In this document: piece by piece, positions 10,905 to 31,407 of the stretch
How positions within the stretch are numbered: the stretch's first letter is position 1
How the letters are laid out: each line of letters begins with the position of its first letter
Assembly: GCA_020060775.1 (NCBI GenBank)
Contig: JAGUZN010000211.1
Location: forward strand, 6,224 to 70,223
Reading direction: 5' to 3'
Source of the DNA: Armatimonadota bacterium
GTDB taxonomy: Bacteria; Armatimonadota; Hebobacteria; CAIYQO01
Length of the DNA: 64,000 nucleotides
Translations under genes and position numbers: made by a program
The notes under the pieces: generated by a model
The model's database searches: none
What the model saw: only the letters and a program-made list of their open reading frames with translations
Told to the model about the DNA's origin: nothing

Positions 10905-10913
10905 AGCTCCTCC

Positions 10914-12362: not shown

Positions 12363-13505
12363 CTATATCCGGTGAGCGTACGCAACAATCGCATCACTAA
12401 TCTCTTCCACCCCTTCGAGCGGCATATGCGAGTACATGGGCAAGGCCAGGCCGCGGGCGGCGAGTTGTTCGGCGACGGGCAGGCGGCCTGCACAGCCGGG
12501 TTCGATATCGCGAAACAGCACCTGGCTATGCAACGCGGGATAGAAGTAGCGCTTTGTCTCGATGCCTTCTTCCTTCAAGTATGCGTAGAGCGCGTCTCTG
12601 GTGAACGGCGCTTCGTGGGGATCGATCTGAATCACTACGTAGTTACGCGTGGAAGTCGCATGGGCTGGGATCATCTGGAAACTGATGCCCGGTATCTCGG
12701 CAAGGCGTGCCTTGTACATCTCCATGATACGCGTGCGATTGGCCGCCCAGATGTCCAGACGGGCGAACGACCAGCGTGCGATGAGGGCGTTGACCTCTTC
12801 GATACGCGCCGAAAGCCCCAGCCAATGCATTTCCTGACCATCAGGCCCCTTGCCATAATCTCGCATGCGCCGTAGTAGCGCCGCCAGTTCATCGTCATTG
12901 GTGGTGATCAGGCCGCCCTCCATGGCAGTGACGACCTTTGTCGGGCTCATACTGAAGGCTTCGCCGCGCCCAAAGTTACCCACGGCGGTGCCGCGATAGG
13001 TGCTGCCAATACCCTGGGCGCTATCGAAGAGTAGGGCCAAGCCATACTGCTCTGCCAGCCGCTGATACGCCTCCATCTCGCCCGGTACGCCAAAGATGCA
13101 CACTGGGAAGATGGCCGAGGTGCGCCGGGTGATGAGTGCTTCCGCTTGGGCGGCATCGAGGGTGAACGTCTCGGGGTCGCTATCGCAAAAGACGGGCGCC
13201 AGATCGTTCCACAGCAAGGCCTGCGCGGTGGCGGCAAAGGTAAAGCTGGGCGTGATGACTTCGCTACCGCGCGGCAATTCCAAGGCCTTTAATAGCAACA
13301 TTAACCCAGCAGTGCCGCATGAGACGGCAATGGTATGTCGGACGCCTAGGCGGGCACATACTTCCTCTTCCAGTAAACTTACTTGCTGCCCAACCGTGAC
13401 GCGTCCACCGGCCAGAATGGCGGCAAACTCTTCGTGGATCTCCGCGGGGTGCGGCAATGTGGGACAGACAATGGGATACCGAACCGGGGCGACAGCGATG
13501 GCCAT
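12363..13505 (-). CDS. DegT/DnrJ/EryC1/StrS-family PLP-dependent sugar aminotransferase (PglE-like).
   Basis: Has a family-typical fold-type I aminotransferase sequence (…SMSPTKVVTAMEGGLITTND…). It is followed on the minus strand by acetyltransferase and PglC-like genes. Confidence 0.9.
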   Translation of the reverse strand: MAIAVAPVRYPIVCPTLPHPAEIHEEFAAILAGGRVTVGQQVSLLEEEVCARLGVRHTIAVSCGTAGLMLLLKALELPRGSEVITPSFTFAATAQALLWNDLAPVFCDSDPETFTLDAAQAEALITRRTSAIFPVCIFGVPGEMEAYQRLAEQYGLALLFDSAQGIGSTYRGTAVGNFGRGEAFSMSPTKVVTAMEGGLITTNDDELAALLRRMRDYGKGPDGQEMHWLGLSARIEEVNALIARWSFARLDIWAANRTRIMEMYKARLAEIPGISFQMIPAHATSTRNYVVIQIDPHEAPFTRDALYAYLKEEGIETKRYFYPALHSQVLFRDIEPGCAGRLPVAEQLAARGLALPMYSHMPLEGVEEISDAIVAYAHRI

Positions 13506-13620
13506 GATGAGACTCCTGATCTGCGCAAACTACCGGGATTATTATAGTACGCTTTCTCGATCCTGCCTAGCACAAACGCCAGAACAGCAAATGCCTGGTA
13601 CGAGGCCTGTGAGGCGGCCT

Positions 13621-14232
13621 TCAGCGCCGAAGCCGAGCGGGATTGCCAAACACAACGGCATTATCGACAATATTACTCACGACGACACTGCCCGCGCCGA
13701 TGGTACAGTCATGTCCGATCATTATGCCCGGTTTCACACAAGCGCCAATACCCATCAGGGTCTCGGCGCCAATATGGACCTGGCCTGCCAGACGTACCCC
13801 GGGCGCGAGGTGCACGGCATCGCCGATGACGCAGTCGTGATCAACTGAGCAGGCGGTATTCAAAATGACGGCACGGCCGACCTGTGTTCGCGCGTTGACG
13901 ACAGCCTGTGCCATGACGACCGTCCCTGCACCGAGCACAGCACTGGGGGAGACGACCGCACTCGGGTGAATGAGCACCGGCAGCTCCCACCCACACTCTC
14001 CAGCACGATGCAGCAGGTGCTCACGTACGGGATTGCTCCCGATTGCCAGTGCAACGCAAGCATGCGGTGGAACTGCCGTCAACGGACCCAACACCGGATA
14101 GCCGAGAACGTGTTGCGTATGCATAGCGGGATTATCATCATAGAAGCCGGCAATCGGCCACGAGAGCGCTTCTACGATCTCCGCGACGACGGCAGCATGT
14201 CCGCCTGCTCCGATAATGTGGAGTTCACGCAT
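13621..14232 (-). CDS. Hexapeptide-repeat sugar N-acetyltransferase (PglD/NeuD family).
   Basis: An N-terminal Rossmann-like segment (MRELHIIGAGGHAAVVAEIVE) is followed by left-handed beta-helix repeats. It lies between the PglC-like and PglE-like genes. Confidence 0.8.
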   Translation of the reverse strand: MRELHIIGAGGHAAVVAEIVEALSWPIAGFYDDNPAMHTQHVLGYPVLGPLTAVPPHACVALAIGSNPVREHLLHRAGECGWELPVLIHPSAVVSPSAVLGAGTVVMAQAVVNARTQVGRAVILNTACSVDHDCVIGDAVHLAPGVRLAGQVHIGAETLMGIGACVKPGIMIGHDCTIGAGSVVVSNIVDNAVVFGNPARLRR

Positions 14233-14243
14233 ATCACAGCCTC

Positions 14244-14867
14244 TTACTTATGCAAGGAAGCCTCAGGCAAATTTACACTGCCTTGAAAAGGCTCCATGGT
14301 CACATGCCCCTGTTGGGAAATGCCATCGCGTCGGAACACTTTGCCAAGGGTGGCAAACAGAATCTTCACATCCAGCAAGAACGTCTGGTGTTCGACGTAC
14401 CAGGCATCCAGTTCAAACCGCTCCTCCCAGCATAAGGCGTTGCGCCCATTGATCTGCGCCCATCCCGTGATGCCGGGTTTCACCGCCAACCGCGTCGCTT
14501 GCCGCGGACTATAGCGATCGTTGTACTCAAGCAATAGCGGGCGTGGTCCCACCAAGCTCATCTCCCCGCGGAGCACGTTGAACAACTGGGGCAACTCATC
14601 CATGCTGGTTGAGCGGATGAATGCACCGACCGGGGTCATACGCTCATGATCGGGTAGCAACTGGCCTTCAGCATCTCGAGCATCGGACATCGTGCGGAAT
14701 TTGAAGAGCGTAAATGGATGACCATGCCGTCCTGCCCGCGATTGACGAAATAGGACGGGGCTGCCCATGCTCCGCCAGATGCACAGGGCTACAACAGCCA
14801 TGACCGGCGATAGTACGGTGAGCATGACCAGTGCAACGATAATGTCAACGAGACGCTTCATCCACAT
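14244..14867 (-). CDS. Small monotopic phosphoglycosyltransferase (PglC/WbaP C-terminal-domain family); initiates a glycan on undecaprenyl phosphate.
   Basis: Contains the conserved core ...FKFRTM...DELPQLFNVLRGEMSLVGPRP... It is ~200 aa with a single N-terminal hydrophobic helix. Confidence 0.88.
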   Translation of the reverse strand: MWMKRLVDIIVALVMLTVLSPVMAVVALCIWRSMGSPVLFRQSRAGRHGHPFTLFKFRTMSDARDAEGQLLPDHERMTPVGAFIRSTSMDELPQLFNVLRGEMSLVGPRPLLLEYNDRYSPRQATRLAVKPGITGWAQINGRNALCWEERFELDAWYVEHQTFLLDVKILFATLGKVFRRDGISQQGHVTMEPFQGSVNLPEASLHK

Positions 14868-14897
14868 ACTCCAGGCGGCAACGACGTGTACGGAAAG

Positions 14898-16163
14898 TTA
14901 CCCGACCCTCTCTATCGTGACAGGATCCTTCATGCCGGAAGGTTCGGTTGCCCCGAGCAACTCGAGCAAATGGTTCTCCAGCTTGAGCGCTAACCGGCGC
15001 ATATCGTGATGTTCGATGACCCACGCCCGCCCGCGTTCTCCCATCGCCACACGCTCCGCTTCCGTGAGATCGCGCAGTTGGAGGATTGCCTGGGCGAGAG
15101 CATGCGGATCTTCGGGAGGGATGGAAATGCCGGACTGTGCCTCCTCGACCGGATTATTCAAACTGCGACAGGCAAAAATCGTGGGGCGCCCGGCATAGAG
15201 ATAATCAAAAAGCTTATTGGCGCTCACCCCGTAGCGAGCGAGTACCGGCATATCGCGCAGGATGAAAATGAAGGCGTGGCTCTGGGAGAAATGTCTCGTC
15301 AACTCCGTCTTGGCGACCGGGGGATGGAAGGCCACATTCTGCAGACCGGCCGCTTCCGCCGACTGCTGGAGCATCACTTTCTGCGGACCATCACCGACCA
15401 GGCGCACCTCGATGCCGGCCCCCTGCGGATGGGCCTGCAATAGTTTAGCCGCCTCAATCACCGTACCAAGCCCGTTCGCCGGACCATGGGATCCGAGGAA
15501 TGACACGACAAAGCGATTCGCTGCGGGGGGCGGCGAATCGATGGCGGCGTAGAGTGTGGTGTCGATGCCATTCGGGATCTGCCAGATATGTTCACGCGGG
15601 ATGCCATGTTGCTCCAGGTAGCCCACCATACCCGGAAAGAGTGCGATCACCCTGTCCGCATGTCGGTAGAGATTGCGTTCGATGTGGCGCAAGTACCAGT
15701 ATATGGGGTGGCGCGTGGACAACGCGCCGACATCGACCAGCGACTCCGGCCAGACGTCGCGTACTTCAAAGACGAACGGGACGCCGAAGCAGCGGGCAAG
15801 TCGCAGCCCGGCATCGGCCGCATGCAGGTGCACACAGGAGCCGATGATCACCTCAGGCGCAGGAAGGTCAGCAGTGGCTCGGCACACACTCTGCCGGTAA
15901 CTCAGCATATTCACGAATCGCTGCACCGTGTTTCGGTACGGCGTGGTGCGCACGAAGCGAAAGCGCACGCCCTCGTACATACGATCGACGTACAAGTCTC
16001 CATCCGGAAGGTCAAAAGCCCGTGCCTGCCCATGGGGCGTTGCGGAGGCGAAGATCGTCACCTCATGCCCGCGCTGCTGCAGATAGCGCGCCAGCGTGGC
16101 ATGACGTGTCCCACCGGCGCCGTCAAGCGGAACAGCGTAGTGATTTAAGATCCAAATGCGCAT
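14898..16163 (-). CDS. Glycosyltransferase family 4 (GT-B fold).
   Basis: Has GT4 architecture. The start MRIWILNHYAVP is chosen at 16163, 18 nt inside the track ORF start. Confidence 0.85.
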   Translation of the reverse strand: MRIWILNHYAVPLDGAGGTRHATLARYLQQRGHEVTIFASATPHGQARAFDLPDGDLYVDRMYEGVRFRFVRTTPYRNTVQRFVNMLSYRQSVCRATADLPAPEVIIGSCVHLHAADAGLRLARCFGVPFVFEVRDVWPESLVDVGALSTRHPIYWYLRHIERNLYRHADRVIALFPGMVGYLEQHGIPREHIWQIPNGIDTTLYAAIDSPPPAANRFVVSFLGSHGPANGLGTVIEAAKLLQAHPQGAGIEVRLVGDGPQKVMLQQSAEAAGLQNVAFHPPVAKTELTRHFSQSHAFIFILRDMPVLARYGVSANKLFDYLYAGRPTIFACRSLNNPVEEAQSGISIPPEDPHALAQAILQLRDLTEAERVAMGERGRAWVIEHHDMRRLALKLENHLLELLGATEPSGMKDPVTIERVG

Positions 16164-16201
16164 GCAGAACTTCTCCAGCACTCATGACTTCGTGTGCACG
16201 T

Positions 16202-17287
16202 TCACGGGGTAAGTGTATGGACGATATGCGTCGAGGCATGCCCTTCACCGTAATACGGACCGGGGTCCGGCAAGGCGGGCGGATGATCAATCAACCGCTC
16301 GATCGCGTGAGCCAAACGGTCGGCATCCGCGCCGACAAGCTGATTCGCCCCGGCCTCGACCGTTTCCACCCATTCAGTTTCATCGCGCAGGGTGACGCAG
16401 GGCACACGGTAGAAGAACGCTTCCTTTTGCACCCCCCCAGAATCCGTTGTGATCGCGAAGGCCGATTCTTCCAACGCCACCATCTCAAGATAGCCGACAG
16501 GGTCGATCAACGTCAACCGTGAGAGGTATTGCTCCGTCAGCCCCTGACCTTCTATGATATGGCGCGTGCGCGGATGCAGGGGCAGCACGACGGGCATATG
16601 CTCGGCCACGCGCTGCAACCCGGTGAATATTTCGCGCAGCCGGTGCGGGTCATCGGTGTTTTCCGCGCGGTGGACGGTGGCAAGCACGTACGACTGTGGC
16701 GTCAGCCCGAGCCTGGCCAGGATGTGCGTCTGTTGCCGCGCCTTCTCACGGTAAAAGAGCGAGGCATCGTACATCACATCCCCCACCAGGTGGATGCGTG
16801 CTTCGGGAATGCCCTCGCGGCGCAGGTGCGCACTGGCCACCTCGGTCGGCGTGAAAAGGAGATCGGACACCTGGTCGGTGAGCACGCGATTGATCTCCTC
16901 TGGCATGCGCCGGTTGAAGGAACGCAGCCCGGCCTCGACATGCGCCACCGGGATATGCAGCTTCACTGCGGCCAATGCCCCCGCCAGCGTCGAGTTCGTA
17001 TCGCCGTAGACGAGCACCCAGTCCGGCTGGCGTTCGAGCACGACCTGCTCAATGCCTTCAAGCATGCGTCCGGTTTGCGCGCCGTGGCTGGCCGAGCCGA
17101 TGCCCAGGTGATAATCCGGACGCGGGATCTCCAACTCGTCGAAAAAGACATCCGACATGTTGGCATCGTAATGCTGCCCGGTATGCACCAGGATTTCGTC
17201 CATCCCGTCACTTGCGCGCAGAACGCGCGAGACGGCAGCCGCCTTGATGAACTGCGGCCGTGCGCCGATGATGGTCACGATCTTCAT
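16202..17287 (-). CDS. wecB: UDP-N-acetylglucosamine 2-epimerase (non-hydrolysing), WecB-like.
   Basis: Begins MKIVTIIGARPQFIKAAAV...HTGQHYD...GDTNSTLAGALAA and carries the WecB signature along the full length. Confidence 0.92.
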   Translation of the reverse strand: MKIVTIIGARPQFIKAAAVSRVLRASDGMDEILVHTGQHYDANMSDVFFDELEIPRPDYHLGIGSASHGAQTGRMLEGIEQVVLERQPDWVLVYGDTNSTLAGALAAVKLHIPVAHVEAGLRSFNRRMPEEINRVLTDQVSDLLFTPTEVASAHLRREGIPEARIHLVGDVMYDASLFYREKARQQTHILARLGLTPQSYVLATVHRAENTDDPHRLREIFTGLQRVAEHMPVVLPLHPRTRHIIEGQGLTEQYLSRLTLIDPVGYLEMVALEESAFAITTDSGGVQKEAFFYRVPCVTLRDETEWVETVEAGANQLVGADADRLAHAIERLIDHPPALPDPGPYYGEGHASTHIVHTLTP

Positions 17288-18402
17288 CCTAACAACTCCT
17301 CGTACACGCTCAATAACTTCCGGCTCTCGCGATCCCAGTTATAGTGTTCTCGCACCGCCTGTCTGCCGCGTTCCCCCATCGCCTCGGCTTCTGCCGGATG
17401 CTCGAGGATCCACTGCATGGCGTCGGCGATCGCCCCTGCATCTTGCGGATCGACCAGTAGCCCGCACTGATGCGTCTCGACAATTGCTCGCCATCGTGGA
17501 AAATCGGAGGCGATCACCGGCAACCCGGCAGCCATATATTCAAACAGCTTATTCGGCTGCGCATCAGTATGATTGGGCACCGGATGGAAGGTGACGATGC
17601 CGGCACGGGCGGCGTCTGCCAGGTGCAACATGGCTTCCCGCGTAATCCACCCGTGAAATCGCACCCGTTTCCATCCGGTTTGTTCGCGCAGTTCCTGCTC
17701 CAAGCTGTCAGGACGAATCACCCCTGCCAGGTCGAGACTCGCATCAAGCACGGCGGGAAATTGGGCCAGGGCATCGACGATTTCAGTAATGCCGCGCAGG
17801 CGAGTAATCCCTCCTGCATACCAAAACCGAGGTGGGCGTTGCGCGTAAAGCGTGCCGGCGACGAATTCGATCTCCTCGGCCAGTGGGAAATTGGATACCA
17901 CGACAGTTTTTACGGGAGGCAGATGCTCAGCGATGGCCGGGGTGGCCGCCACCACGCGCTGAAACAGCGCTGTTCCCACCACTTCAGCAACTCCTGCCAG
18001 CCGACCGACCGCTCTACGCAGCGACTTTGGAATCCATCCCTTGGTCAGGATTTGCCGTGCGACGTCTTCATGGACATCATAGATGACGCGCTTGCCGCAC
18101 AAGCGGAGCAGAATGCCAACCGGGATGAGTTCGGGGTCATGGAAATGGTAGAGATCCGCTTTGAGTCGCAGCGCAGCCGTGAACACCTGCCGGGTAGTGG
18201 CCACCATCCGCTGGCGACGCCCTGCAGGTTTGGGCACAGCACGGAGGGTCACGTCATGCATGTGCCCCTCACCCTCGTGCGGCGCCACGAGCGTCACCTC
18301 GTAACCGGCACGCGAAAGCGACCGACATTCTTTATGGTAGATGCGTACATCGTCAGGGCGGTGTACGGTGGTTAGATGGCAAATACGTCGTGAGTCGGTC
18401 AT
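17284..18402 (-). CDS. Glycosyltransferase family 4.
   Basis: A GT4 sequence (…FHGWITREAM… EX7E-like C-terminal region). It overlaps the wecB start by 4 bp. Confidence 0.85.
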   Translation of the reverse strand: MTDSRRICHLTTVHRPDDVRIYHKECRSLSRAGYEVTLVAPHEGEGHMHDVTLRAVPKPAGRRQRMVATTRQVFTAALRLKADLYHFHDPELIPVGILLRLCGKRVIYDVHEDVARQILTKGWIPKSLRRAVGRLAGVAEVVGTALFQRVVAATPAIAEHLPPVKTVVVSNFPLAEEIEFVAGTLYAQRPPRFWYAGGITRLRGITEIVDALAQFPAVLDASLDLAGVIRPDSLEQELREQTGWKRVRFHGWITREAMLHLADAARAGIVTFHPVPNHTDAQPNKLFEYMAAGLPVIASDFPRWRAIVETHQCGLLVDPQDAGAIADAMQWILEHPAEAEAMGERGRQAVREHYNWDRESRKLLSVYEELLG

Positions 18403-19334
18403 GCGGATGCCGGCACCTCTCTACGATAGCGAATTTTATGCAGCAGGGCGTTAATGCGCTTACATGCTGAATGATAATACCCATCCCACTGCCGATGGCA
18501 TGCGCGCAGCGGTTCGCTGTTATGGACTGCTGCCAGAAAAGCGAGTTGGGTCACATGCAAGCGGTGATAGGCGACCGTTGCCGGATTACGCCGTCCTCGT
18601 GGGCTCACATGCAGATCGTAGGCCGACCAATAGCCGAGATCCCAGCGCGACCAGCAGGATTCGAGCGTCCGAATATAGTGCGACAGCCCTGCGTGTTCAG
18701 CTGCCGACGCATCCACGGTACTGAGATCTGTCAGGCCAATGAGCGCATAAAAAAAGCCATTGAGTGTATGCGCAGGCGTGGTTGATGGGTACTCTTCGAG
18801 GAAGGGCATGGTCCCCTCTATCATTGAACGCACCCCGCCTGCGCCGATGTCGAGTGTCATTGGCGCAGTAGCACGGCGTGCCTGTGCGAGGTAGCGTTCA
18901 TCCTCTGTCATTCGATAAGCGCGCACCAACATGCTGATGCCCTCACCCTGCGACATGCACGATATCCAGGGGGCTTTCAAGTCGTCCCAGTCAAACTCGT
19001 AGCGCCAGCAAGCATCATCCGCACGCATGAACCAGTCAGCCATCTGCAAGAAAAACGTGCGGCTCCTGTCATCCTGGCGAGTGATCCAGCGGTTATAGTG
19101 CGCCAAGCCGTATGCCGCAATGCGCGTGGGATTATACTGTCGCCCTACGGACCGGTATTGCCGCACCGGGACCCCGTGTTCATCCTTTGGGTGATAATAT
19201 GTAGATTCCTGCTCAAGGGTAAACTCCAGATCAAGAGGGTAGGCATGACTGGTGAGTGCCTGAGGGTGCAGCCCAAAGTCTGTGCTGCCGGTCAGGGCGC
19301 TCAGAATATCGCGTAATATCTTATGAACCGGCAT
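18399..19334 (-). CDS. D-glucuronyl C5-epimerase C-terminal-domain-like protein (putative uronic-acid epimerase).
   Basis: The motif ...WISCMSQGEGISMLVRAY... resembles the Glce C-terminal domain. It is about 310 aa and sits in glycan-locus context. Confidence 0.5.
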   Translation of the reverse strand: MPVHKILRDILSALTGSTDFGLHPQALTSHAYPLDLEFTLEQESTYYHPKDEHGVPVRQYRSVGRQYNPTRIAAYGLAHYNRWITRQDDRSRTFFLQMADWFMRADDACWRYEFDWDDLKAPWISCMSQGEGISMLVRAYRMTEDERYLAQARRATAPMTLDIGAGGVRSMIEGTMPFLEEYPSTTPAHTLNGFFYALIGLTDLSTVDASAAEHAGLSHYIRTLESCWSRWDLGYWSAYDLHVSPRGRRNPATVAYHRLHVTQLAFLAAVHNSEPLRACHRQWDGYYHSACKRINALLHKIRYRREVPASA

Positions 19335-20682
19335 GGCACCCCTCCGGAGTTGAGCGTGTCGTGGTAGGCGGGAAGAACCGCGTAATCATCTGTCGTAAGG
19401 GCAAACGATTCAGGACAACCAGAAGAAGCGGGAGTGACAGTAACCCTCTTCCAAGGAGAACAGAATATAAATTGGACATAAAAATATACATGAGTGCAAC
19501 TGATATCGTAGCGCGCACGGCGATACCGACCGCATCGGTGTTCCAGCGATCAAAAAATATCTGTAACCAGATAAGACAAGCACAGACGGCTAGTGTGCCC
19601 AAAAAGACACCTGGCATACCCCAATCTGCGTAAAAGGTGGCAAAGTATGAGGCGTTGACCAAGCCGCCGGGAATAGTTGCATTGTAATAGTTATCATAAA
19701 TGAAAGAAGCGACGTTGATATAATCTGTCCCAACGACGAGAGAGACAAAGCGATTTGATGCGCCACACAAGTGTGGAAAATAGTTTGTAAAGGCGTCGAA
19801 GTACACTGCGCTTGTTTGTGAGGGAACCCAGGTGACTCGGCGGATCAAGTTTTCGAATGCAGATTGTACGGCAGCAGAACCGTGCAAGCCGAATAGTAGC
19901 GGGTAGATGAATGCTGGAACTAACATACCCCCAACACCGAGCACTATAACCGGCGTAGATAACTTACCTCGGTTGCTCATGTAGAAAGATAATCCGGCGC
20001 ACAGGAGAATGACGGCTAACGGTGCTTTGGCTGCAGTAAACAGCGAGAAGAGCGCTCCAGCTAGTATGACAGCCAAATAGTGAGAAACAGAAATGCGTTT
20101 TCTAACCAGCAAAGTTGTAATAAATGCAATATATACCGGGTAACCTAGTGCACGGTTGTAAGCATAGGCAACCGAAAGAATTGGATTTATATTACTAGTG
20201 AGTCCCCCAATGCGAAGAAACATCGTTTCTGTTGACTGCCCTGGGTTGTCAATAAGGAAAAAGAATGCGATCCCAGAAGCCCCTTTATCGAAGACAAAGA
20301 CAAAAGGTAGCAGCACAAACAATACCGATAATAATGGTGTAATATTTGTGAATACCACATCGCGATATGTCATACTAACTTTACCAAAACTACACTCGAT
20401 ATCACGAAATGAGTGCCCCAACACAGGGAGACCAAAACCGACAACAAATAGTACAATATAAGGGATACAAATTACTGATATAATGTAATGGACATTGCGT
20501 ATTTCGTGCTGGTATATCGAGAATGCCTGTAAGTAAATCAACACGATATACCCAACCATAAATATGGTCGGAAAAGAAAGTTTTTTGTATGGACCAAAGA
20601 GCAAGCGCGTCAACCAGAGCATAATGACAGGGTTGACGATGTAATACAAGAAAGCCAATATATCTTGGATGCTCATTGACAT
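19321..20682 (-). CDS. Polytopic membrane protein; a putative Wzy-type repeat-unit polymerase. It lies in the AT-rich segment.
   Basis: There are more than 10 predicted hydrophobic helices and no other homology. Its position between the GT genes and wzx is typical for wzy. The start is set at the internal ATG (20682) after the upstream gene stop; the track start 20775 overlaps capK by 86 bp. Confidence 0.5.
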   Translation of the reverse strand: MSMSIQDILAFLYYIVNPVIMLWLTRLLFGPYKKLSFPTIFMVGYIVLIYLQAFSIYQHEIRNVHYIISVICIPYIVLFVVGFGLPVLGHSFRDIECSFGKVSMTYRDVVFTNITPLLSVLFVLLPFVFVFDKGASGIAFFFLIDNPGQSTETMFLRIGGLTSNINPILSVAYAYNRALGYPVYIAFITTLLVRKRISVSHYLAVILAGALFSLFTAAKAPLAVILLCAGLSFYMSNRGKLSTPVIVLGVGGMLVPAFIYPLLFGLHGSAAVQSAFENLIRRVTWVPSQTSAVYFDAFTNYFPHLCGASNRFVSLVVGTDYINVASFIYDNYYNATIPGGLVNASYFATFYADWGMPGVFLGTLAVCACLIWLQIFFDRWNTDAVGIAVRATISVALMYIFMSNLYSVLLGRGLLSLPLLLVVLNRLPLRQMITRFFPPTTTRSTPEGCHAGS

Positions 20683-20689
20683 TCTTTCT

Positions 20690-22057
20690 TCACACGACAG
20701 CTTCCCTTGGTAAACGTGAGATAACTGTTCTGCGCTTACCGGATTCCCCTCTGTCAATACCTTCGACATACTCAAACGCGATCTGTATGTCAGATCCGAT
20801 CATACGAACGATACAGTCACGTAAGTAGTCTTCGTCGTCTGAGGAATACTTCGGACACTTGACAATATTAACTGTCAAGTGTTTCCAGTCATGCTGAACG
20901 ATTTGGTATTCTTTCACGGTGGGACGATCGCTAAAGACAATGGTGAACGCTGGAGCTGTCACTATCATTCCTTCAGGGGTACGTATACAGTCATCCACAC
21001 GGCCTTCAAGCGAGGCAATTCTTGGTAAATGACGCCCGCAAGGGCAAGAGGTACCTTCATCAGCAAAAGTACCGATATCGCCAATTTCGTAGCGAATGAA
21101 CGGAAAAGCATAATTATGCAAATCCGTAACGACTATGCGCCCGGTCACCCCTGGTGGGCACGGACGCCCTTGATCATCGAGAATTTCGATATATACGCAA
21201 TCAGCATTTATGTGCATGCCTCGATGCACTTCACACTCTGCCGCAATACTCATTTCACGACTACCATAGGCATCAAACACCTTGCAGGAGAATACTTCCT
21301 CTATAATTGCTCTTTGCTGTGGAAATAGAGTATCTGACGAAGTCATAATCGTGTTGACATTGGCTGAAATATTATTATCTTTCATTAGATGTGCAAATTG
21401 CGAAATAGCGGACGCGTAGCCACAAAGTGCCACAGGTTTAAATGTGTGTAGTTCGTGCAGAAAATTTTTTAGAGTTTCTGGGGATAACTGATAGGCAGAT
21501 ACCCAACGAAACCTTAAAAGACGACTGGTGATTCTTGATACGAGTCTCTGCATAAGAAAATAGTCGAAATGGGATCCACTAACCTTAATATACTTCTCTC
21601 CGATGTGTAATCCTGCCCAAGCACTGTTCCGAATCACTGCAGCCCTGATGTAGTCTAGTGCAGCAGTATTATGAAAAAAACGCGTTGGGACGCCTGTCGA
21701 ACCACCTGTTCTCCCTGCGACGAGTTGCTCTATTGGAAAAGCTGTGGAGATCATTCTATCAAAGTTTTCATTGATCCTCGCTTTTGTAAGAATTGGGAGC
21801 TGTTGAAGATCCTTCAACGAGGTGAGCGCTTTCGGATTAAGGCCAGACTGTTGTAGGGTTGTCGTATAGTACGGGACGGTGGCAGCAGCATGCTGAAGCA
21901 ACGCCTGTAGGCGGTCGAGTTGGTATGATGCAATTTGTTCTGCAGACCACCATTGTTGCTCATCGAGTTCTGCGATCCGCCGACTCAAGTTACGTCCACG
22001 CAAGCGGTCGAAGCAGGGGTAAAGCACACGCTTTGCTAATACAGGATACCAGTCCAT
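20690..22057 (-). CDS. CapK / coenzyme F390 synthetase / phenylacetate-CoA-ligase-like adenylate-forming enzyme.
   Basis: Has the PaaK-like fold signature (…GGSTGVPTRFFH… …YGSREMS…). Homologues are recurrent in capsule loci (CapK). Confidence 0.75.
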   Translation of the reverse strand: MDWYPVLAKRVLYPCFDRLRGRNLSRRIAELDEQQWWSAEQIASYQLDRLQALLQHAAATVPYYTTTLQQSGLNPKALTSLKDLQQLPILTKARINENFDRMISTAFPIEQLVAGRTGGSTGVPTRFFHNTAALDYIRAAVIRNSAWAGLHIGEKYIKVSGSHFDYFLMQRLVSRITSRLLRFRWVSAYQLSPETLKNFLHELHTFKPVALCGYASAISQFAHLMKDNNISANVNTIMTSSDTLFPQQRAIIEEVFSCKVFDAYGSREMSIAAECEVHRGMHINADCVYIEILDDQGRPCPPGVTGRIVVTDLHNYAFPFIRYEIGDIGTFADEGTSCPCGRHLPRIASLEGRVDDCIRTPEGMIVTAPAFTIVFSDRPTVKEYQIVQHDWKHLTVNIVKCPKYSSDDEDYLRDCIVRMIGSDIQIAFEYVEGIDRGESGKRRTVISRLPREAVV

Positions 22058-23392
22058 CTATCTATTACCTTTAGCGACTAGATGCAGAATTGTAATGGCC
22101 ATTACGACATTAATCAAGATGCCTGCCAAGCTGTATAGACCAATACCCAACAGAGCATCATTCATGAACAACGCTATTGCAATAACGCTTGCACGAAGAG
22201 AGAAACCGAAGACTTCGATGACCGTCAGCCAACGCTGTGCACCGATTACCTGAAACACGACTGAAGTAGGCTGTACAGCCAGTACCACTAACAGCCACGG
22301 CAAAATAAAACGTGCATACTCACCGGAAACACGGTAGTTCTCGCCAAAGACAACGGCAAATAGATCAGGTGAGTACACAAAGAGTATAACCGCAGGGATC
22401 AGAGCTAGCCCTATCAAGGAGGCATATACCATGAGCACTAACTTTTTCAGGCTATTACCGGCATGATGATAAGTACACGCCTTCTGATAAAACACGGTAG
22501 TAAAGGACTGACTGACTAATGTAATTGGGATGGCCAATACGCGAAACGCCAGAAAGTAGTGCCCGGCGACTGCCGTACCGAAGGCAATGGGAAATAACAG
22601 CCCGGGCAGGTGCATGGCGGCTCCACCGAGCAGGGCATTCACGGTGGAGAACCGGGGAAAGTCGCGAAACGTTCGAGCGACCGTGCGCATTCGCGGGAGA
22701 CTGATGCCGCTAAAGGCCGCTCGGTTATCCCGCCATGCGCCACGCGCAAGCGAGAACACTCCCCCACTGCGACCGATAATATCTCCACACAACAACCCGA
22801 ATGCCCCTGCGTGCAACAGGCCAAGTCCGACTTGGGATAGCACCATGCCGATGCCCTGGGTAATTTTCGTCGTTGAGATCCGAGCGTACGATTGTTGCCG
22901 GATAGCGAGAAAATTGAACGCTTGATACCCCCCGGACCCCAGCAGGCCCAGGGGAATAAGGAATATAAACTTGCCGATGGATGGGTCGCCGATCAGTTGT
23001 GCAATGCGTCCACCGAATAACAACGTGACCACCAGTGTCGCCAGAGACATCATTAGCAGTAGCGCGATCGAGAGCGCAAGCAGATTCGATGCTTGTCGAT
23101 CACGCTTGGCCACCGGGATTGCCTGTTCGTAGCGCCACGACCCCAGGATAACCAATACGGAAACGACGGCCGTGAAGAACGAGAGCACCCCAAAGTCTTT
23201 CGGGTCATACAAGCGGCTAAGAATAGGAGATGACGCCGCGGCGACGACTTGAGCAATGGCTGTCCCTCCGGCAACCATTGTGACATTCCACCCGAAGCGT
23301 CCGCGGCCAAATACTGATCTCAATAGCGAAGGGACCGCAGAAATGGAAAACGGCCTTCCCGTTACCGTACTGACGGGGAGCGTATCAGGCAT
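22058..23392 (-). CDS. Wzx-type polysaccharide flippase (MOP/PST family).
   Basis: 12-TM topology, and the N-terminal region (…VTMVAGGTAIAQVVAAASSPILSRLY…) is typical of this family. The start is chosen at MPDTLPVS (23392), just after the Wzz stop. The track start 23605 would overlap Wzz by 220 bp. Confidence 0.8.
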   Translation of the reverse strand: MPDTLPVSTVTGRPFSISAVPSLLRSVFGRGRFGWNVTMVAGGTAIAQVVAAASSPILSRLYDPKDFGVLSFFTAVVSVLVILGSWRYEQAIPVAKRDRQASNLLALSIALLLMMSLATLVVTLLFGGRIAQLIGDPSIGKFIFLIPLGLLGSGGYQAFNFLAIRQQSYARISTTKITQGIGMVLSQVGLGLLHAGAFGLLCGDIIGRSGGVFSLARGAWRDNRAAFSGISLPRMRTVARTFRDFPRFSTVNALLGGAAMHLPGLLFPIAFGTAVAGHYFLAFRVLAIPITLVSQSFTTVFYQKACTYHHAGNSLKKLVLMVYASLIGLALIPAVILFVYSPDLFAVVFGENYRVSGEYARFILPWLLVVLAVQPTSVVFQVIGAQRWLTVIEVFGFSLRASVIAIALFMNDALLGIGLYSLAGILINVVMAITILHLVAKGNR

Positions 23393-24826
23393 GGGTTCCC
23401 TCGTGAAGCTGTTGAGCATCCAACACCACCTGGGTGCGGAACCATTCACGATACGGCAGGAGCGTGGCGAACGCCAAACCGAGCAAGGCCAGGAGCACAA
23501 TGATACGTACTCGACCAGCGCTATCCGGTTGCTCGGGCAACTCGGCGTGGTCCAGCAACACGAAATTCGGTCCTCGTGACTGCTCGACAATGCGCGCTTT
23601 TTCAAGTTCCTGGCGCAGCAACTTCACGGTAGCGACGTTTGCCTCTAACTCTGCCTGCAATCGGGCATACGCCGCTTGCTGCTTGGGTAACCTTTCAACG
23701 GTTGTTTGCATCTTGCGTAAAGCGGCATCCAGCCCCTCGGCACGCGCATGGCTGGCTGCCGCCTGGATCACTGCGGGGTACAATACCGGGGATCCACCTT
23801 GATCGAGTGCAGAGAGTTGACGATCAATTTCTGCATTGAGGACCTTCTGGGCACGCTGCAATTCGGCTTGTTTGGCCTGTACATCCGGGTGGTGAGCGGT
23901 CAATTTCTCTGACAGCAGCGCCAACTCAGTCTCGATTTTCGTGACCTGTTGGTAAAGCTGTGCAAGCGTATTACCTACTGCCGGGTTTGGATCAATGCAC
24001 GCTTCAACCATCTTGCCGGCCACGTCGGTCATCACGCGCACCTGTCGCATGGCTGTGGAGGCCTCGAGATCTGCCGCAGTTTTGTCGCTTTGCATCTTGG
24101 CATACTGTTCGGCCAATGCTCTCGCCTGGTCAGGCATGGATACAATATGGTTGGCCCGTTGAAAATCCAACATGGCCGACGTCGCAACCCGGAGTTTGCG
24201 ATCAGCCTCCTGCACTTGCTGTTCCAGAAAAGCAACACTCTGTTCAGCAGGATTGATGCCGAGTTCTTTGGAGAGTACCTGGAGTTCATGCACCAGTGCT
24301 GACGCAACCCTGTAGGCGGTCTGCGGCTGACGGTCACGGAAGCCAACATATAACTCGCCCTGCTTACCGACCTTAATCTCCATATTCTCGCGGAGCTTCT
24401 CCAGTGTTTCGCGATCGTCCAGCTTCCACGCGTTCGCCAAGTCAAGGGGGTCATTCGCATCGTGATGCAATTGATGCAGTACCTCGCGCAACGATCGGTT
24501 GCTCTCAAGAATCAGGCTGGCCGTGACAGCACTGGTGCCAGGTTGGGGAACCATTAAGGCCCCTTCCAGTAAGGGCAGACTGGGTAGGTCACCGCTTCCA
24601 CCACCACCGAGTAAGCTCATTCGGGAGGCGGGGGCGGAAGGGAAGAGCAGGGTCGCTGTTGATGTATAGGTCGTTGGACGCAGTACGGCAATGACGATGC
24701 CCAGGAGAAGACCGATAGCCATACCGACTAACAGCGTTTTCCGGTACTTCCACACAATGGACAGGAAGCGGGGAGGCATAGGCACTGTTGGGCATTCCGC
24801 AAGGTGATCGATTTGCTGTGTCATGG
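23385..24826 (-). CDS. Wzz/GumC/ExoP-family polysaccharide co-polymerase (chain-length determinant). There is no C-terminal kinase domain.
   Basis: Two terminal TM helices flank a long coiled-coil periplasmic region. The start is MTQQIDHL (24826) with an AGGA upstream. Confidence 0.7.
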
Positions 24827-25353
24827 TCAGTCCTGCAGCTTCAGTTCGGTCGATTCGGCGACTTTCGGGGGAAGGTCGCCAGGGAATGTTCTCCTGATGG
24901 ATGTCATCGAGTAGGGGCCGCCCGAAAATCGGGCAACGCATTTCCCCATCAGTTCACTTCAACAATAGTGGCAAGACGAGTGCCCGATTTACCTGGGGGG
25001 TGTGCACTATATCTCTCGCCTATCAGGGTACCGCGCGTTGACGTGCCGCAAACCTGCGACCTGCGTTCCGCCCGGAATAACTGACAGTCCGATACCGGGG
25101 CGTGCGCAAAGCCGCTGTCAGTCCTGCGCCCTGTGTTCGACAACACCGGTAAGCACCAGTACTTCTCTCGTGACTGCTGGCTATTGTACCCGCTTTGGAC
25201 AAGCGTTTCAAGCCATCCCCCAAGGTGCCTGCTCTTCTCTGCCATGCTGCCAGGCAGTTCCACGTGATGCGTGATCTGTCCACGCATACCCTTTGACATG
25301 TCGCATACCTCCTACCCCGTACCGGCTTGATCGGCGTGCTCGCATGATTGAGT

Positions 25354-25385
25354 CAGGGTGCAGGTTGGGTGAAAGCTGCACCCTG
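25354..25385 (+). promoter_or_regulatory. Strong hairpin in the 5' leader of the divergent aminotransferase gene (CAGGGTGCAG-12 nt-CTGCACCCTG). A second hairpin, CGTGCAC-tct-GTGCACG, lies at ~25437-25453.
   Basis: A perfect 10-bp inverted repeat sits in a 715-bp divergent intergenic region between wzz and degT2. Confidence 0.35.
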
Positions 25386-25541
25386 TGGTTCCCGTTTATC
25401 GGGACTCCTGCACTCCCCGTCACCATGGGTGTACAACCGTGCACTCTGTGCACGAACCTTGTCGCGACTTCGGCGATTACCGATCCATGGGCGGTCTACA
25501 CTGGAGATAACGCGGGTTCCAGGGGAAGGATGTGGCGGACC

Positions 25542-26702
25542 ATGAGGGTCAAGTCGTTTTTACCGTTTGCGCCGCCGGCGATCGGCGAGGAAGAGATCGA
25601 AGAGGTGGTGGACAGTCTGCACTCGGACTGGATCACCACCGGGCCGAAAGTGCAGCAGTTCCAGCAGGCGTTCGCGGAGTATCTGGGGTCACCAGGGGCG
25701 CTGGCGTTGAATTCCTGCACGGCGGGGCTGCACACGGCGCTGGCGACGCTGGGCATCGGGCACGGCGACGAGGTGATCACCACGCCGATGACCTTTGCGG
25801 CATCGGTGAATGTGATCGAGCATGTGGGGGCAACGCCGGTGCTGGCGGACGTGGAGCCGGATACGCTGAACATCGACCCGGCGCGAGTGGAACCGGCGAT
25901 CACGCCGCGCACGCGCGCCCTGCTCATCGTGCATTACAGCGGGCACCCGGCGAACCTGGCGGCACTGCGCGACCTGGCTTACCGTCACGGCCTGGCCATG
26001 GTCGAAGATGCCGCCCATGCGTTGCCGGCACGCTACCGCGGCGAACTGATCGGCGCTTCATCCACCCCGACCGCCTTCAGCTTTTACGCCACCAAGAATA
26101 TGACGACCGCCGAGGGAGGCATGCTCACCGGCGATCCGGAGTTCATCGAGCGCGCGCGCATGATCAGCCTGCATGGGATGAACCGCGATGCCTGGAAGCG
26201 CTATGGCCAGGGCGGCAACTGGTTCTACGAGGTGGTGTTCCCCGGATTCAAATATAACATGACGGATATCCAGGCGGCCATGGGCATTCACCAGTTGCAG
26301 AAGCTGGAGCAGTTTCAACGGCGCCGGCAGCAGATCGTGCAGGCGTACACCGCCGCCTTCGCCGGAGAGGATACACTGGAGACGCCCACCGTGCGTCCGG
26401 ATGTCGAGCATGCCTGGCATCTGTACGTGCTGCGGCTGCGCCATGCAGCGCTCACCATCTCGCGTGAACAGTTCATCGAGGAGTTGGGACAGCGGAATAT
26501 CGGTACTTCGGTGCATTTCATCCCGATTCACCTGCACCCCTATTACCGCGACAAATACGGGTACCGCCCGGGCGATTTCCCGGTCGCCTACGAACACTAT
26601 CAGCGCATGCTTAGCCTGCCGCTGCACCCGCGTATGTCGGAAGAAGATGTGGCGGATGTGATCGACGCGGTGCTGGATGTGACGAGGCACTACCACCGAT
26701 GA
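25542..26702 (+). CDS. DegT/ArnB/PglE-family sugar aminotransferase (copy 2).
   Basis: Begins MRVKSFLPFAPPAIGEEEIEEVVDSLHSDWITTGPKV... and contains ...SFYATKNMTTAEGGM... GGAAGGA lies 12 nt upstream of this ATG. The track start 25293 adds an 83-aa GC-rich extension. Confidence 0.9.
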   Translation: MRVKSFLPFAPPAIGEEEIEEVVDSLHSDWITTGPKVQQFQQAFAEYLGSPGALALNSCTAGLHTALATLGIGHGDEVITTPMTFAASVNVIEHVGATPVLADVEPDTLNIDPARVEPAITPRTRALLIVHYSGHPANLAALRDLAYRHGLAMVEDAAHALPARYRGELIGASSTPTAFSFYATKNMTTAEGGMLTGDPEFIERARMISLHGMNRDAWKRYGQGGNWFYEVVFPGFKYNMTDIQAAMGIHQLQKLEQFQRRRQQIVQAYTAAFAGEDTLETPTVRPDVEHAWHLYVLRLRHAALTISREQFIEELGQRNIGTSVHFIPIHLHPYYRDKYGYRPGDFPVAYEHYQRMLSLPLHPRMSEEDVADVIDAVLDVTRHYHR

Positions 26703-27295
26703 CCATGGCGAAACGGTGCTTCGATCTCTGGTGGACGGTGCTGGGGCTCGTGCTGCTCTGCCCGTTGTTCCTGCTCATCGCGCTGGTGATCTGGCTGGAC
26801 GACCGCGGCCCGGTCTTTTACCGGCAGGTGCGCGTGGGACGGAACGGCATGCCGTTCCGCATCTGGAAGTTTCGCACCATGACGGTCAACGCCGACCGCA
26901 TCGGCGCGGCACTGACGGTAGGGCGCGACCCGCGCATCACGCGCATTGGCCACTGGCTGCGCGCATCCAAGCTGGACGAGTTGCCGCAACTCTTCAACGT
27001 GCTCACCGGCGAAATGAGCCTGGTGGGTCCGCGCCCGGAGGTGCCGGATTACGTGGCGCACTACACCACCGAACAACAGCCCGTGTTGGTCCTCATACCC
27101 GGCATCACCGATCCGGCCTCAATCACCTATCGCGATGAGAGCGAGGTGCTGGGGGCTGCGGAGGATCCACAACGCCTCTATCTGCAGGAGATCATGCCGG
27201 CGAAAATCCGCCTGAACCTCGACTATGCCGAACGCGCGAACGTATTCACCGATTTCACAGTGATCCTGCACACCTTCGCCAGGATCGTCCGCTAA
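26699..27295 (+). CDS. Small monotopic phosphoglycosyltransferase (PglC-like, copy 2).
   Basis: Shares the …FRIWKFRTM…LDELPQLFNVLTGEMSLVGPRPE… core. It overlaps the aminotransferase stop by 4 bp. Confidence 0.88.
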   Translation: MTMAKRCFDLWWTVLGLVLLCPLFLLIALVIWLDDRGPVFYRQVRVGRNGMPFRIWKFRTMTVNADRIGAALTVGRDPRITRIGHWLRASKLDELPQLFNVLTGEMSLVGPRPEVPDYVAHYTTEQQPVLVLIPGITDPASITYRDESEVLGAAEDPQRLYLQEIMPAKIRLNLDYAERANVFTDFTVILHTFARIVR

Positions 27296-30965: not shown

Positions 30966-31407
30966 GATGCCGACATGTCGGCTCTCCGACCGGCATCGAG
31001 TCGCGGGAGACAAGCGCTGTCGTCATCCCCCATTCGCCCTATTGTTCCATATATTAGCGCAAACCGCACGATACCCCCTATTGATTCGAAGGTGAGCAGT
31101 GCTTCTCCTACGTCACGATGCCATCGCATCCTATTCACGCCCCTTTAACCAATGCTTCATCATTTCACGGATGGTACAGTAGGACTTTATTGATGTTGTA
31201 TGGAAATAGAATGCCAGGAGATGGGCATGGCCTTTGATACCGCACTGTTCAGCGTACCCGCCCCTGTGCCGAACCCCCGTGCATATCAACCTGCACGTCT
31301 CGCTTGTACTCCGATGATGCCAATCCTGCCGGGTGCAGGTGTTGACTCGGATATTGGCTGATTCGCGCTGTCATGGAATGACCGTGTGTAAGTAGTCCGA
31401 TCATGCT

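What the first reader, a model, noticed from the sequence alone, without database searches (positions are those of the whole stretch)
19321..22600. AT-rich compositional island inside the glycan locus (wzy, capK-like, 5' part of wzx)
From about 19.4 to 22.6 kb the sequence is visibly AT-richer than the rest of the window. It has long runs such as aatataaattggacataaaaatatacatg and gaaaaagaatgcgatcc, and codon third positions shift to A/T. This segment covers the Wzy-like polymerase, the CapK-like ligase and the proximal half of the flippase. It is the classic signature of a laterally exchanged, serotype-determining cassette inside an otherwise native high-GC cluster.
Basis: seen in the sequence. 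Interest (0 to 1): 0.5.

Follow-up and report, generated by a model that had tools for sequence, protein, structure and literature searches.

The report
Foreign low-GC patch in glycan operon
A 3.1-kb stretch in the middle of a surface-polysaccharide operon is much AT-richer than its neighbours and looks like DNA recombined in from a lower-GC bacterium, which is a well-known pattern in such operons.

Summary
A change-point fit puts the AT-rich segment at 19,383-22,526 (about ±80 bp), with GC 0.449 against 0.595 around it. All the genes involved lie on the minus strand.

Membrane-protein bias does not explain the dip:
- After conditioning on amino-acid content, GC3 is still 0.28-0.29 too low, which is 4.6-4.8 gene-level SD.
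- The soluble CapK-like gene is as AT-rich as wzy.
- The dinucleotide signature deviates by 5.6 SD.
- Orthologous wzx, capK and wzy genes in other bacteria with 53-61% GC show no such dip.
- The encoded proteins carry an AT-type amino-acid imprint.

The same gene order, wzx-capK-wzy-C5-epimerase-GT4, occurs in an unrelated metagenome contig with uniform 61% GC. So the patch brought no new kinds of gene. It most likely replaced the centre of an existing module, with junctions inside wzx and at the end of wzy.

A serotype-determining role and a native origin of the flanks cannot be tested, because no close relative of this genome was found. This is an ordinary member of a known kind, of low to moderate interest.

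The parts
19383..22526 (.). AT-rich compositional segment. GC is 0.449 inside and 0.595 around it. Boundary support intervals are 19,301-19,464 and 22,518-22,600.
   Evidence: Change-point fit. Sliding GC and GC3. Karlin delta* of 99 against 41.5±10.2 for other windows of the same size.
22058..23392 (-). wzx flippase, 444 aa from the ATG at 23,392; JGI aa. It is compositionally chimeric: codons 1-289 have GC 0.576 and GC3 0.63, codons 290-444 have GC 0.447 and GC3 0.46.
   Evidence: Pfam Polysacc_synt_3, 63.8 bits against a cut-off of 23. About 11 hydrophobic segments. The intragenic shift has Fisher p=4e-4 on GC3 and 9e-6 on all positions, and is absent in three homologous wzx genes. The reading frame aligns end to end with homologs.
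20690..22057 (-). CapK-like / PaaK-family adenylate-forming ligase, 455 aa, soluble, entirely inside the island (GC 0.46, GC3 0.425).
   Evidence: Precomputed Pfam CapK_C (PF27533) plus AMP-binding for the identical protein P0001; the best non-self hit is 51% identical. AMP-binding scores 29.5 bits against a cut-off of 29.9. NCBIfam PaaK, F390-synthetase and DVU1553 models all score below their cut-offs. PDB phenylacetate-CoA ligase 4r1l, E=7e-29. No TM-like segment.
19321..20682 (-). Wzy-like repeat-unit polymerase, 453 aa. Codons 1-431 have GC 0.436; the last 22 codons have GC 0.606 and overlap the next gene by 14 nt.
   Evidence: An identical 453-aa protein, P0310, is in the library. The family is rare: 19 representatives at E<1e-30 out of 1.84 billion, the best 47-48% identical. 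TIGR04370 scores 37.7 bits (cut-off 40) over model positions 5-383 of 396. No Pfam hit. About 10 hydrophobic segments. Tail GC.
18399..19334 (-). D-glucuronyl C5-epimerase C-terminal-domain protein. It is the first normal-GC gene downstream of the island and the start of the conserved backbone.
   Evidence: Pfam C5-epim_C, 156.8 bits. Best hits are 60% identical. It lies directly downstream of this Wzy family in L001, L084/L089 and L088, and about 2 kb downstream of it in L091.
17284..18402 (-). GT4-family glycosyltransferase ('GT4b'), part of the conserved backbone.
   Evidence: Pfam. 44-50% identity in L001, L084, L085, L087, L088, L091, L093, L094 and L095.
16202..17287 (-). Non-hydrolysing UDP-GlcNAc 2-epimerase (WecB type).
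   Evidence: Pfam Epimerase_2, 392.9 bits. NCBIfam wecB, 361.7 bits against a cut-off of 210.
14898..16181 (-). GT4-family glycosyltransferase ('GT4a'), part of the conserved backbone.
   Evidence: Pfam. 41-45% identity in L084/L089, L087, L088 and L091.
12363..14867 (-). Initiating sugar-phosphate transferase (Bac_transf, 14244-14867), PglD-like acetyltransferase (13621-14232) and DegT-type aminotransferase (12363-13505), at the 3' end of the operon.
   Evidence: Pfam.
23385..24941 (-). Wzz/PCP-type chain-length determinant, the first gene of the operon. Its stop overlaps the wzx start.
   Evidence: Pfam Wzz, 31.5 bits against a cut-off of 25.5; GNVR 23.1 bits, below its cut-off. NCBIfam chain-length-determinant models score below their cut-offs.

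Best explanation
The 12.6-kb minus-strand operon (wzz, wzx, capK-like, wzy, C5-epimerase-like, GT4, wecB, GT4, Bac_transf, pglD-like, degT) is a Wzx/Wzy-dependent heteropolysaccharide locus.

Its central 3.1 kb runs from codon ~290 of wzx, through the capK-like gene, to about 22 codons before the end of wzy. This stretch has a different ancestry from the DNA on either side. It spent a long time in a genome of roughly 44-47% GC and was then recombined into a ~60% GC operon.

Both junctions lie inside intact reading frames, and the same gene order exists elsewhere with uniform composition. The most likely event is therefore a homeologous, like-for-like replacement of the middle of an already existing wzx-capK-wzy module by the corresponding piece of a diverged copy. 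It is not an insertion of new genes by a mobile element.

Shown: the compositional break, its boundaries, the gene identities at family level, the synteny with other loci, and the absence of mobile-element marks.

Inferred: the direction (this segment incoming rather than the flanks), the donor GC, the recombination mechanism, and the biochemical roles. The presumed roles are that Wzx flips the lipid-linked unit, the CapK-like enzyme ATP-activates a carboxylate to add a substituent, and Wzy polymerises.
For: - GC and GC3 dip, with amino-acid composition controlled.
- The soluble CapK-like gene is as AT-rich as the membrane-protein genes and has no TM-like segment.
- The base-composition-normalised dinucleotide signature is 5.6 SD from that of other 3.1-kb windows.
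- Ortholog control, wzy: wzy minus backbone dGC is -0.153 here and -0.003 to -0.074 in four other loci that carry the module.
- Ortholog control, capK: -0.135 here and -0.022 in L001. capK orthologs have GC 0.56-0.57 in the 0.59-0.60 GC contigs L093 and L094.
- Protein-level imprint: FYMINK/GARP is 1.28 (Wzy), 0.95 (CapK) and 1.23 (Wzx C-part). It is 0.61 for the Wzx N-part and 0.48-0.65 for the backbone proteins. The L001 orthologs give 0.66 and 0.53.
- The sharp intragenic shift in wzx is absent from three homologs. The wzy tail returns to GC 0.61.
- L001 is collinear over five genes at 39-51% identity and has flat 61% GC.
- No tRNA, no flanking repeats and no Rfam element.
- Segments of differing GC in O-antigen clusters, with wzx and wzy the lowest, are documented and conventionally read as transfer from lower-GC donors (PMC3715488, section 'GC Content').
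Against: - No donor or close relative was found. The best non-self hits are 51% (CapK), 47-48% (Wzy), 40% (Wzx) and 60% (C5-epimerase).
- Pairwise identities among module copies are star-like at 37-60%, for island and flank genes alike, so phylogenetic incongruence could not be shown.
- Smaller wzy-centred dips occur in some other loci (L088 -0.07; L095; L087), so part of the effect may be intrinsic to the gene.
- The flanking operon genes also sit somewhat below the window's GC3 norm, so 'resident' flanks are an assumption.
- The source contig may come from a metagenome assembly, and this could not be checked.
- The window has other short AT-richer patches, in the 5' ends of the two MCP genes at GC 0.45-0.55. 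Local heterogeneity is therefore not unique to the island.
Confidence: 0.6

Rival explanations
1. The mosaic is older than this genome's possession of the locus. The wzx 3'-capK-wzy piece and the rest were joined in some earlier host, and the whole 12.6-kb operon, already mosaic, was later acquired or inherited. No exchange happened in this lineage.
For: The whole operon has mildly depressed GC3, with residuals of -0.04 to -0.13 for 13.6-14.9, 17.3-19.3 and 23.4-24.9 kb. Every locus gene queried lacks a hit above 60% identity, and those looked up by exact sequence are singleton 90% clusters. Parts of the module are reshuffled across very different hosts of 30-61% GC.
Against: The island's GC1 and GC3 look close to equilibrium for a ~44-46% GC genome. 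This is my estimate from the Lawrence-Ochman codon-position regressions, recalled from memory. It suggests little amelioration, hence a short residence at 60% GC. The flanks are nearly host-like.
Confidence: 0.2
2. Nothing foreign is present. Low GC in wzx, wzy and neighbouring genes is maintained by selection or by local mutation bias, for example rare codons that keep these proteins at a low level, or AT-rich DNA that is a target of silencing proteins.
For: [quoted passage not shown] Smaller dips over wzy-like genes occur in L088, L095 and L087.
Against: Orthologs in L001, L089, L091, L093 and L094 show no dip. The soluble CapK-like gene is equally affected. The shift starts abruptly in the middle of wzx and is absent in homologous wzx genes. 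Amino-acid content and dinucleotide signature are shifted too.
Confidence: 0.1
3. Assembly artefact. The contig is a chimera of two organisms that carry homologous modules, joined inside wzx and wzy.
For: The source is only known as a 77,040-bp contig held by NCBI and JGI. It was not found among 185,579 species-representative genomes, although it matches both search patterns. Both junctions lie in genes that have homologs in many community members.
Against: Both junctions keep intact full-length reading frames and the tight operon spacing. Copies at 45% and 60% GC would share few exact k-mers on which to mis-join. Two reciprocal mis-joins 3.1 kb apart are unlikely.
Confidence: 0.05

Closest known systems
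GC-mosaic O-antigen (rfb) gene clusters of Salmonella enterica and E. coli
   Same: A Wzx/Wzy-dependent cluster divided into segments of different GC content. wzx, wzy and the unit-specific genes are the lowest. This is read as transfer from lower-GC donors and assembly over time (PMC3715488).
   Different: The host here is ~60% GC and the patch ~45%. The upstream junction lies inside wzx, and the patch carries a CapK-like ligase. The same gene order exists elsewhere with uniform GC, which points to like-for-like replacement. No strain series is available to link the patch to a serotype.
Capsule-locus (cps) recombination and mosaic alleles in Streptococcus pneumoniae, Klebsiella and Acinetobacter K loci (established knowledge, not tested here)
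   Same: Homologous recombination replaces the central, type-specific part of a polysaccharide locus, using conserved sequence as crossover sites.
   Different: In those systems the crossovers are usually in conserved flanking genes and whole type-specific regions are swapped among close relatives. Here the crossovers appear to lie inside wzx and wzy themselves, and the partners would be very divergent.
PaaK / CapK-like adenylate-forming ligases (ANL superfamily; PDB 4r1l, 2y27)
   Same: Sequence family: CapK_C and AMP-binding domains, and E=7e-29 to a solved phenylacetate-CoA ligase.
   Different: It scores far below the PaaK equivalog cut-offs (95.7 against 646 bits). It sits in glycan loci, and its substrate is unknown.
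Asparagine-synthetase-like amidotransferases of O-antigen and EPS loci (for example WbpS of P. aeruginosa O6, from memory; the XrtA/PEP-CTERM amidotransferase model is a weak, far-sub-cut-off match)
   Same: In related loci L084/L089, L088 and L091, an AsnB-like or PP-loop enzyme sits in or near the position next to the flippase and this Wzy family that CapK holds here. Both kinds of enzyme ATP-activate a carboxylate.
   Different: They belong to a different protein superfamily. That the two are functionally equivalent in these loci is an inference only.
Classical integrative genomic islands
   Same: Atypical GC content and dinucleotide signature.
   Different: There is no tRNA, no integrase, no direct repeats and no insertion of extra genes. 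The patch begins and ends inside operon genes.

Membership tests
Wzx/Wzy-dependent polysaccharide gene cluster | Initiating polyprenyl-phosphate sugar-phosphate transferase | tested here: met
   Bac_transf, 223 bits, at 14244-14867.
Wzx/Wzy-dependent polysaccharide gene cluster | Wzx-type flippase (MOP superfamily) | tested here: met
   Polysacc_synt_3, 63.8 bits against a cut-off of 23. About 11 hydrophobic segments.
Wzx/Wzy-dependent polysaccharide gene cluster | Wzy-type repeat-unit polymerase | tested here: inconclusive
   No Pfam hit. TIGR04370 scores 37.7 bits, just under its cut-off of 40, but aligns over model positions 5-383 of 396. About 10 hydrophobic segments. Its position between the flippase and the glycosyltransferases is conserved.
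Wzx/Wzy-dependent polysaccharide gene cluster | Chain-length determinant (PCP/Wzz) | tested here: met
   Pfam Wzz, 31.5 bits against a cut-off of 25.5. GNVR is below its cut-off.
Horizontally acquired DNA segment (compositional criteria) | GC and GC3 deviate from the host beyond what amino-acid content explains | tested here: met
   Residual GC3 of -0.28 and -0.29, which is 4.6-4.8 gene-level SD. The ortholog-controlled dGC points the same way.
Horizontally acquired DNA segment (compositional criteria) | Deviant dinucleotide relative-abundance signature | tested here: met
   delta* x1000 is 99, against 41.5±10.2 (maximum 70) for 107 other windows.
Horizontally acquired DNA segment (phylogenetic criteria) | Gene trees or best hits of the segment are incongruent with those of the flanks | tested here: inconclusive
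   All module copies are about equally distant, at 37-60% identity. The best hits of island genes (47-51%) and flank genes (40-60%) are similar.
Serotype-determining variable cassette | Presence/absence or allelic polymorphism among strains of the species, tied to glycan structure | not testable with these tools
   No protein more than 60% identical to any locus gene queried was found. The source genome is not in the species-representative set. Only the cross-phylum comparison shows this part of the module to be the variable one.
Mobile genomic island | tRNA or integrase, flanking direct repeats, or IS elements | tested here: not met
   No tRNA in the 64 kb. Only short, chance-level repeats. 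All ORFs in the patch are operon genes.
PaaK/CapK-like ANL adenylate-forming enzymes | AMP-binding core plus CapK_C domain; homology to solved PaaK structures | tested here: met
   PF27533 and PF00501 are precomputed for the identical protein P0001. PF00501 scores 29.5 bits against a cut-off of 29.9 in my own scan. 4r1l, E=7e-29. The motif GGSTGxP is invariant in the 30-sequence alignment.
Phenylacetate-CoA ligase PaaK (equivalog) | Score above the NCBIfam equivalog cut-off | tested here: not met
   TIGR02155 scores 95.7 bits against a cut-off of 646. NF041878 scores 105.9 against 700.

The most novel reading that the evidence does not exclude
The comparison loci reveal a recurrent, phylum-crossing module: a rare Wzy family, a glucuronyl-C5-epimerase-like protein and two GT4 transferases. 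The position beside the flippase in this module is filled either by a CapK-like adenylating ligase (window, L001) or by an AsnB-like / PP-loop amidotransferase (L084/L089, L088, L091). In L093 and L094 a CapK-like ligase accompanies other parts of the set (a flippase and GT4b, with a different polymerase-like protein).

If the two enzyme types are alternative ways of derivatising the same uronic-acid carboxyl group, the uncharacterised CapK family would be uronate amide ligases. The AT-rich patch would then mark an exchange of the modification, flippase-specificity and polymerase unit of such a glycan.
Probability: 0.25. Interest if true: 0.45.

Novelty: new member of a known kind. Interest (0 to 1): 0.27.

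Why it matters
It adds one well-delimited example to a textbook pattern: the unit-processing genes of surface-glycan loci are compositionally foreign. Two details are useful beyond that.

- The crossover appears to lie inside wzx. This predicts a chimeric flippase whose C-terminal third co-travels with the polymerase and the modifying enzyme.
- Ortholog-controlled comparisons separate 'foreign ancestry' from 'wzx and wzy are always AT-rich' for this case. Reviews still call that general question unexplained.

The side observation that CapK-like and AsnB-like enzymes alternate in or near the same position offers a testable lead to the unknown function of CapK-family ligases.

Tried and rejected
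- **Exact-sequence look-ups.** Look-ups of window proteins, meant to find the source genome or sister strains, returned nothing. Cluster look-up showed only singleton clusters and no accession.
- **Species-representative genome scan.** A scan with a CapK alignment did not return the source genome. None of the 80 loci returned (CapK at most 43% identical) carries the module.
- **Test for a chimeric Wzx by best hits.** No hit exceeds 40% identity. The N- and C-parts are 41% and 35% identical to L001, which is not informative.
- **Test for phylogenetic incongruence.** The pairwise identity matrices are star-like.
- **Search for mobile-element marks.** Repeats, tRNA and Rfam all came back negative.
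- **Similarity of the GC-rich wzy tail to L001.** The only alignment there runs through a stop codon and is not convincing.
- **Literature search.** A search for CapK + phenylacetate-CoA ligase + polysaccharide found 0 papers.
- **Search for a uronic-acid precursor gene.** I looked for a UDP-sugar dehydrogenase in the window to support a uronic-acid substrate and found none. The only GFO/IDH/MocA oxidoreductase lies 30 kb away at 52,683-53,777.
- **Structure prediction** was not used, because family assignment was not the open question.


Full report
**1.

The window averages about 0.60 GC. In 1-kb windows only 20-22 kb falls to 0.42-0.46. In 300-bp windows the trough (0.36-0.50) runs from about 19.4 to 22.5 kb.

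A two-boundary likelihood segmentation of 12-28 kb places the segment at 19,383-22,526. GC is 0.449 inside and 0.595 outside, with a log-likelihood gain of 109. The support intervals are 19,301-19,464 and 22,518-22,600. No other window of the same length outside 19-23 kb goes below 0.556.

**2. What lies there**

All genes from 12.3 to 24.9 kb are on the minus strand and form one tightly packed operon. In transcription order they are:

- wzz/PCP (23385-24941)
- wzx (22058-23392)
- a CapK/PaaK-like ligase gene (20690-22057)
- a Wzy-like polymerase gene (19321-20682)
- a glucuronyl-C5-epimerase-like gene (18399-19334)
- GT4 (17284-18402)
- wecB (16202-17287)
- GT4 (14898-16181)
- Bac_transf (14244-14867)
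- a pglD-like acetyltransferase gene (13621-14232)
- degT (12363-13505)

The 453-aa Wzy call is confirmed by an identical library protein.

Because the operon is on the minus strand, the AT-rich part of wzx is its 3' third. Codons 1-289 have GC 0.576 and GC3 0.63. Codons 290-444 have GC 0.447 and GC3 0.46 (Fisher p=4e-4 on GC3 and 9e-6 on all positions).

At the other end, wzy is AT-rich except for its last 22 codons (GC 0.606), which overlap the epimerase gene.

**3. The dip is more than amino-acid bias or chance**

- *Amino-acid control.* With the codon usage of the other 44 long ORFs and each gene's own amino-acid sequence, expected GC3 is 0.74 for wzy and 0.71 for capK. Observed GC3 is 0.46 and 0.425. 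The residuals are 4.6-4.8 gene-level SD. Membrane-type amino-acid content explains only about a third of the total GC deficit of wzy.
- *Soluble gene.* The CapK-like protein has no hydrophobic segment, yet its gene is the most AT-rich at third positions.
- *Dinucleotide signature.* This measure is normalised for base composition. It differs from the rest of the window by delta*=99 (x1000), against 41.5±10.2 (maximum 70) for other 3.1-kb windows.

**4. Relatives elsewhere**

No close relative exists in the databases searched. The best non-self hits are 51% (CapK-like), 40% (Wzx), 47-48% (Wzy) and 60% (C5-epimerase-like).

The source genome is known only as a 77-kb NCBI/JGI contig. It is not among 185,579 species representatives. 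Strain-level presence/absence could therefore not be tested.

Distant relatives are nevertheless informative.

- **L001** (metagenome contig, 6.2 kb, flat GC 0.61) carries Wzx-CapK-Wzy-C5epi-GT4 in the same order. Identities are 39, 51, 42, 50 and 48%.
- **The Wzy family** is rare: 19 representatives at E<1e-30 among 1.84 billion. Wherever context was recovered, it is followed by the same C5-epimerase and GT4 genes, except in L090, where no backbone gene was detected, and the 2.2-kb fragment L092:
  - L084/L089 (GC 0.55-0.56)
  - L088 (GC 0.41)
  - L091 (GC 0.53; there a Wzy_C-domain gene lies between wzy and the epimerase gene)
- **The variable part.** Upstream of that backbone the flippase type varies, and so does an ATP-dependent carboxylate-activating enzyme:
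  - CapK-like in the window, L001, L093 and L094
  - asparagine-synthetase-like or PP-loop in L084/L089, L088 and L091
- **Loci with other processing genes.** L085/86 and L087 keep C5epi-GT4 but have unrelated wzx and wzy.

So the AT-rich patch coincides with the part of the module that varies between loci. Its gene content, however, is the same as in the compositionally uniform L001.

**5. Ortholog-controlled composition**

- *wzy.* Across four other module copies, wzy differs from its own backbone genes by -0.003 to -0.074 in GC. In the window the difference is -0.153.
- *capK.* It differs by -0.022 in L001 and -0.135 in the window. capK orthologs in two further ~0.60-GC contigs have GC 0.56-0.57.
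- *wzx.* Homologous wzx genes in L001, L091 and L095 show no N/C shift.
- *Proteins.* FYMINK/GARP is 1.28 for Wzy, 0.95 for CapK and 1.23 for the Wzx C-part. It is 0.61 for the Wzx N-part and 0.48-0.65 for the backbone proteins. The window's Wzy falls between its orthologs from 0.56-GC and 0.41-GC hosts, and far from the 0.61-GC ortholog at 0.66.

A shift at the amino-acid level requires long evolution in an AT-richer genome.

Using the Lawrence-Ochman codon-position regressions (recalled from memory, not recomputed here), capK's GC1 of 0.535 and GC3 of 0.425 both point to a source of about 43-44% GC. This suggests little amelioration.

**6. Mechanism**

There is no tRNA, integrase, IS element or flanking repeat. 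Both compositional junctions fall inside intact, full-length reading frames of genes that the presumed donor must also have had.

The best-supported reading is homeologous replacement of the centre of a pre-existing wzx-capK-wzy module by the equivalent piece of a diverged, lower-GC copy. This would produce a chimeric Wzx. Its C-terminal third would then share its origin with the ligase and the polymerase.

The following are inferences:

- the direction of the event
- whether it happened in this lineage or in an earlier host
- the biochemical roles

The identity matrices are star-like and cannot show incongruence.

**7. Rivals**

- *An older, pre-assembled mosaic* is the main rival. The rest of the operon is itself mildly below the window's GC3 norm.
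- *Selection-maintained low GC* is disfavoured by the ortholog controls, the soluble ligase and the mid-gene onset. Small wzy-centred dips elsewhere (L088, L095, L087) show that some gene-intrinsic tendency exists.
- *An assembly chimera* cannot be excluded without reads, but it would need two in-frame mis-joins.

**8. Comparison with what is known, and verdict**

[quoted passage not shown] They are conventionally attributed to lateral transfer (PMC3715488).

This is a new example of that kind in a ~60% GC organism. Its features are an intragenic junction in wzx, a CapK-like ligase within the patch, and evidence for like-for-like replacement rather than new gene content.

Its interpretation is partly supported: foreign, lower-GC ancestry is likely, while 'serotype-determining' and 'native flanks' remain untested and the wzx end was mis-stated. 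Interest is low to moderate.

Noticed in passing
window 25293-27295 (+): A second DegT-type aminotransferase and a second Bac_transf sugar transferase are transcribed divergently from the wzz operon. They have the highest GC3 in the neighbourhood (0.77-0.84). They are only 28% and 38% identical to the operon's own DegT and Bac_transf. The DegT ORF has an N-terminal extension of ~95 aa before the Pfam match, so its true start is probably further downstream.
   Followed up: partly
window 5831-7945 (-) and 35217-37337 (+): Two paralogous chemoreceptors (53% identical, both 4HB_MCP_1-HAMP_2-MCPsignal). In each, the 5' sensor-domain part is AT-richer (GC 0.45-0.55) than the rest of the gene (0.58-0.66). 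These are smaller intragenic GC shifts in apparently resident genes.
   Followed up: partly
window 10242-12101 (-) and 31408-34955 (+): Two LuxR-type response regulators (53% identical), each next to a HisKA_3 kinase, flank the glycan region on either side. With the HD-GYP-like protein (8121-9917) and a PAS-GGDEF-EAL protein (28629-31013), this suggests that c-di-GMP and two-component signalling control the polysaccharide locus.
   Followed up: no
L084 5256-6809; L088 928-2052; L091 6520-8445: In related loci the position next to the flippase and this Wzy family is taken by asparagine-synthetase-like or PP-loop ATP-pyrophosphatase enzymes instead of the CapK-like ligase. This hints that the two enzyme types are alternative carboxylate-modifying functions.
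   Followed up: partly
L087 7000-11500: A metagenome locus with the same C5epi-GT4-WecB-GT4 backbone has its own GC trough, 0.37-0.42 against 0.50-0.56 around it. The trough covers wzx, a Wzy_C-type polymerase gene, the epimerase gene and the first GT4. The boundaries of the low-GC part therefore differ between loci.
   Followed up: no
L091 11516-12775: A Wzy_C (O-antigen ligase/polymerase) domain gene is inserted between the Wzy-family gene and the C5-epimerase gene. This locus therefore has two polymerase/ligase-like membrane proteins.
   Followed up: no
window 12363-24941: The operon encodes a glucuronyl-C5-epimerase-like protein and a carboxylate-activating ligase, but no UDP-sugar 6-dehydrogenase. 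If a uronic acid is involved, its source must be encoded elsewhere.
   Followed up: partly
window 55549-56871 (+): A SpoIID-domain protein lies among housekeeping genes (ruvB, hisG, a class A PBP). It is a possible clue to the unnamed host's taxonomy.
   Followed up: no
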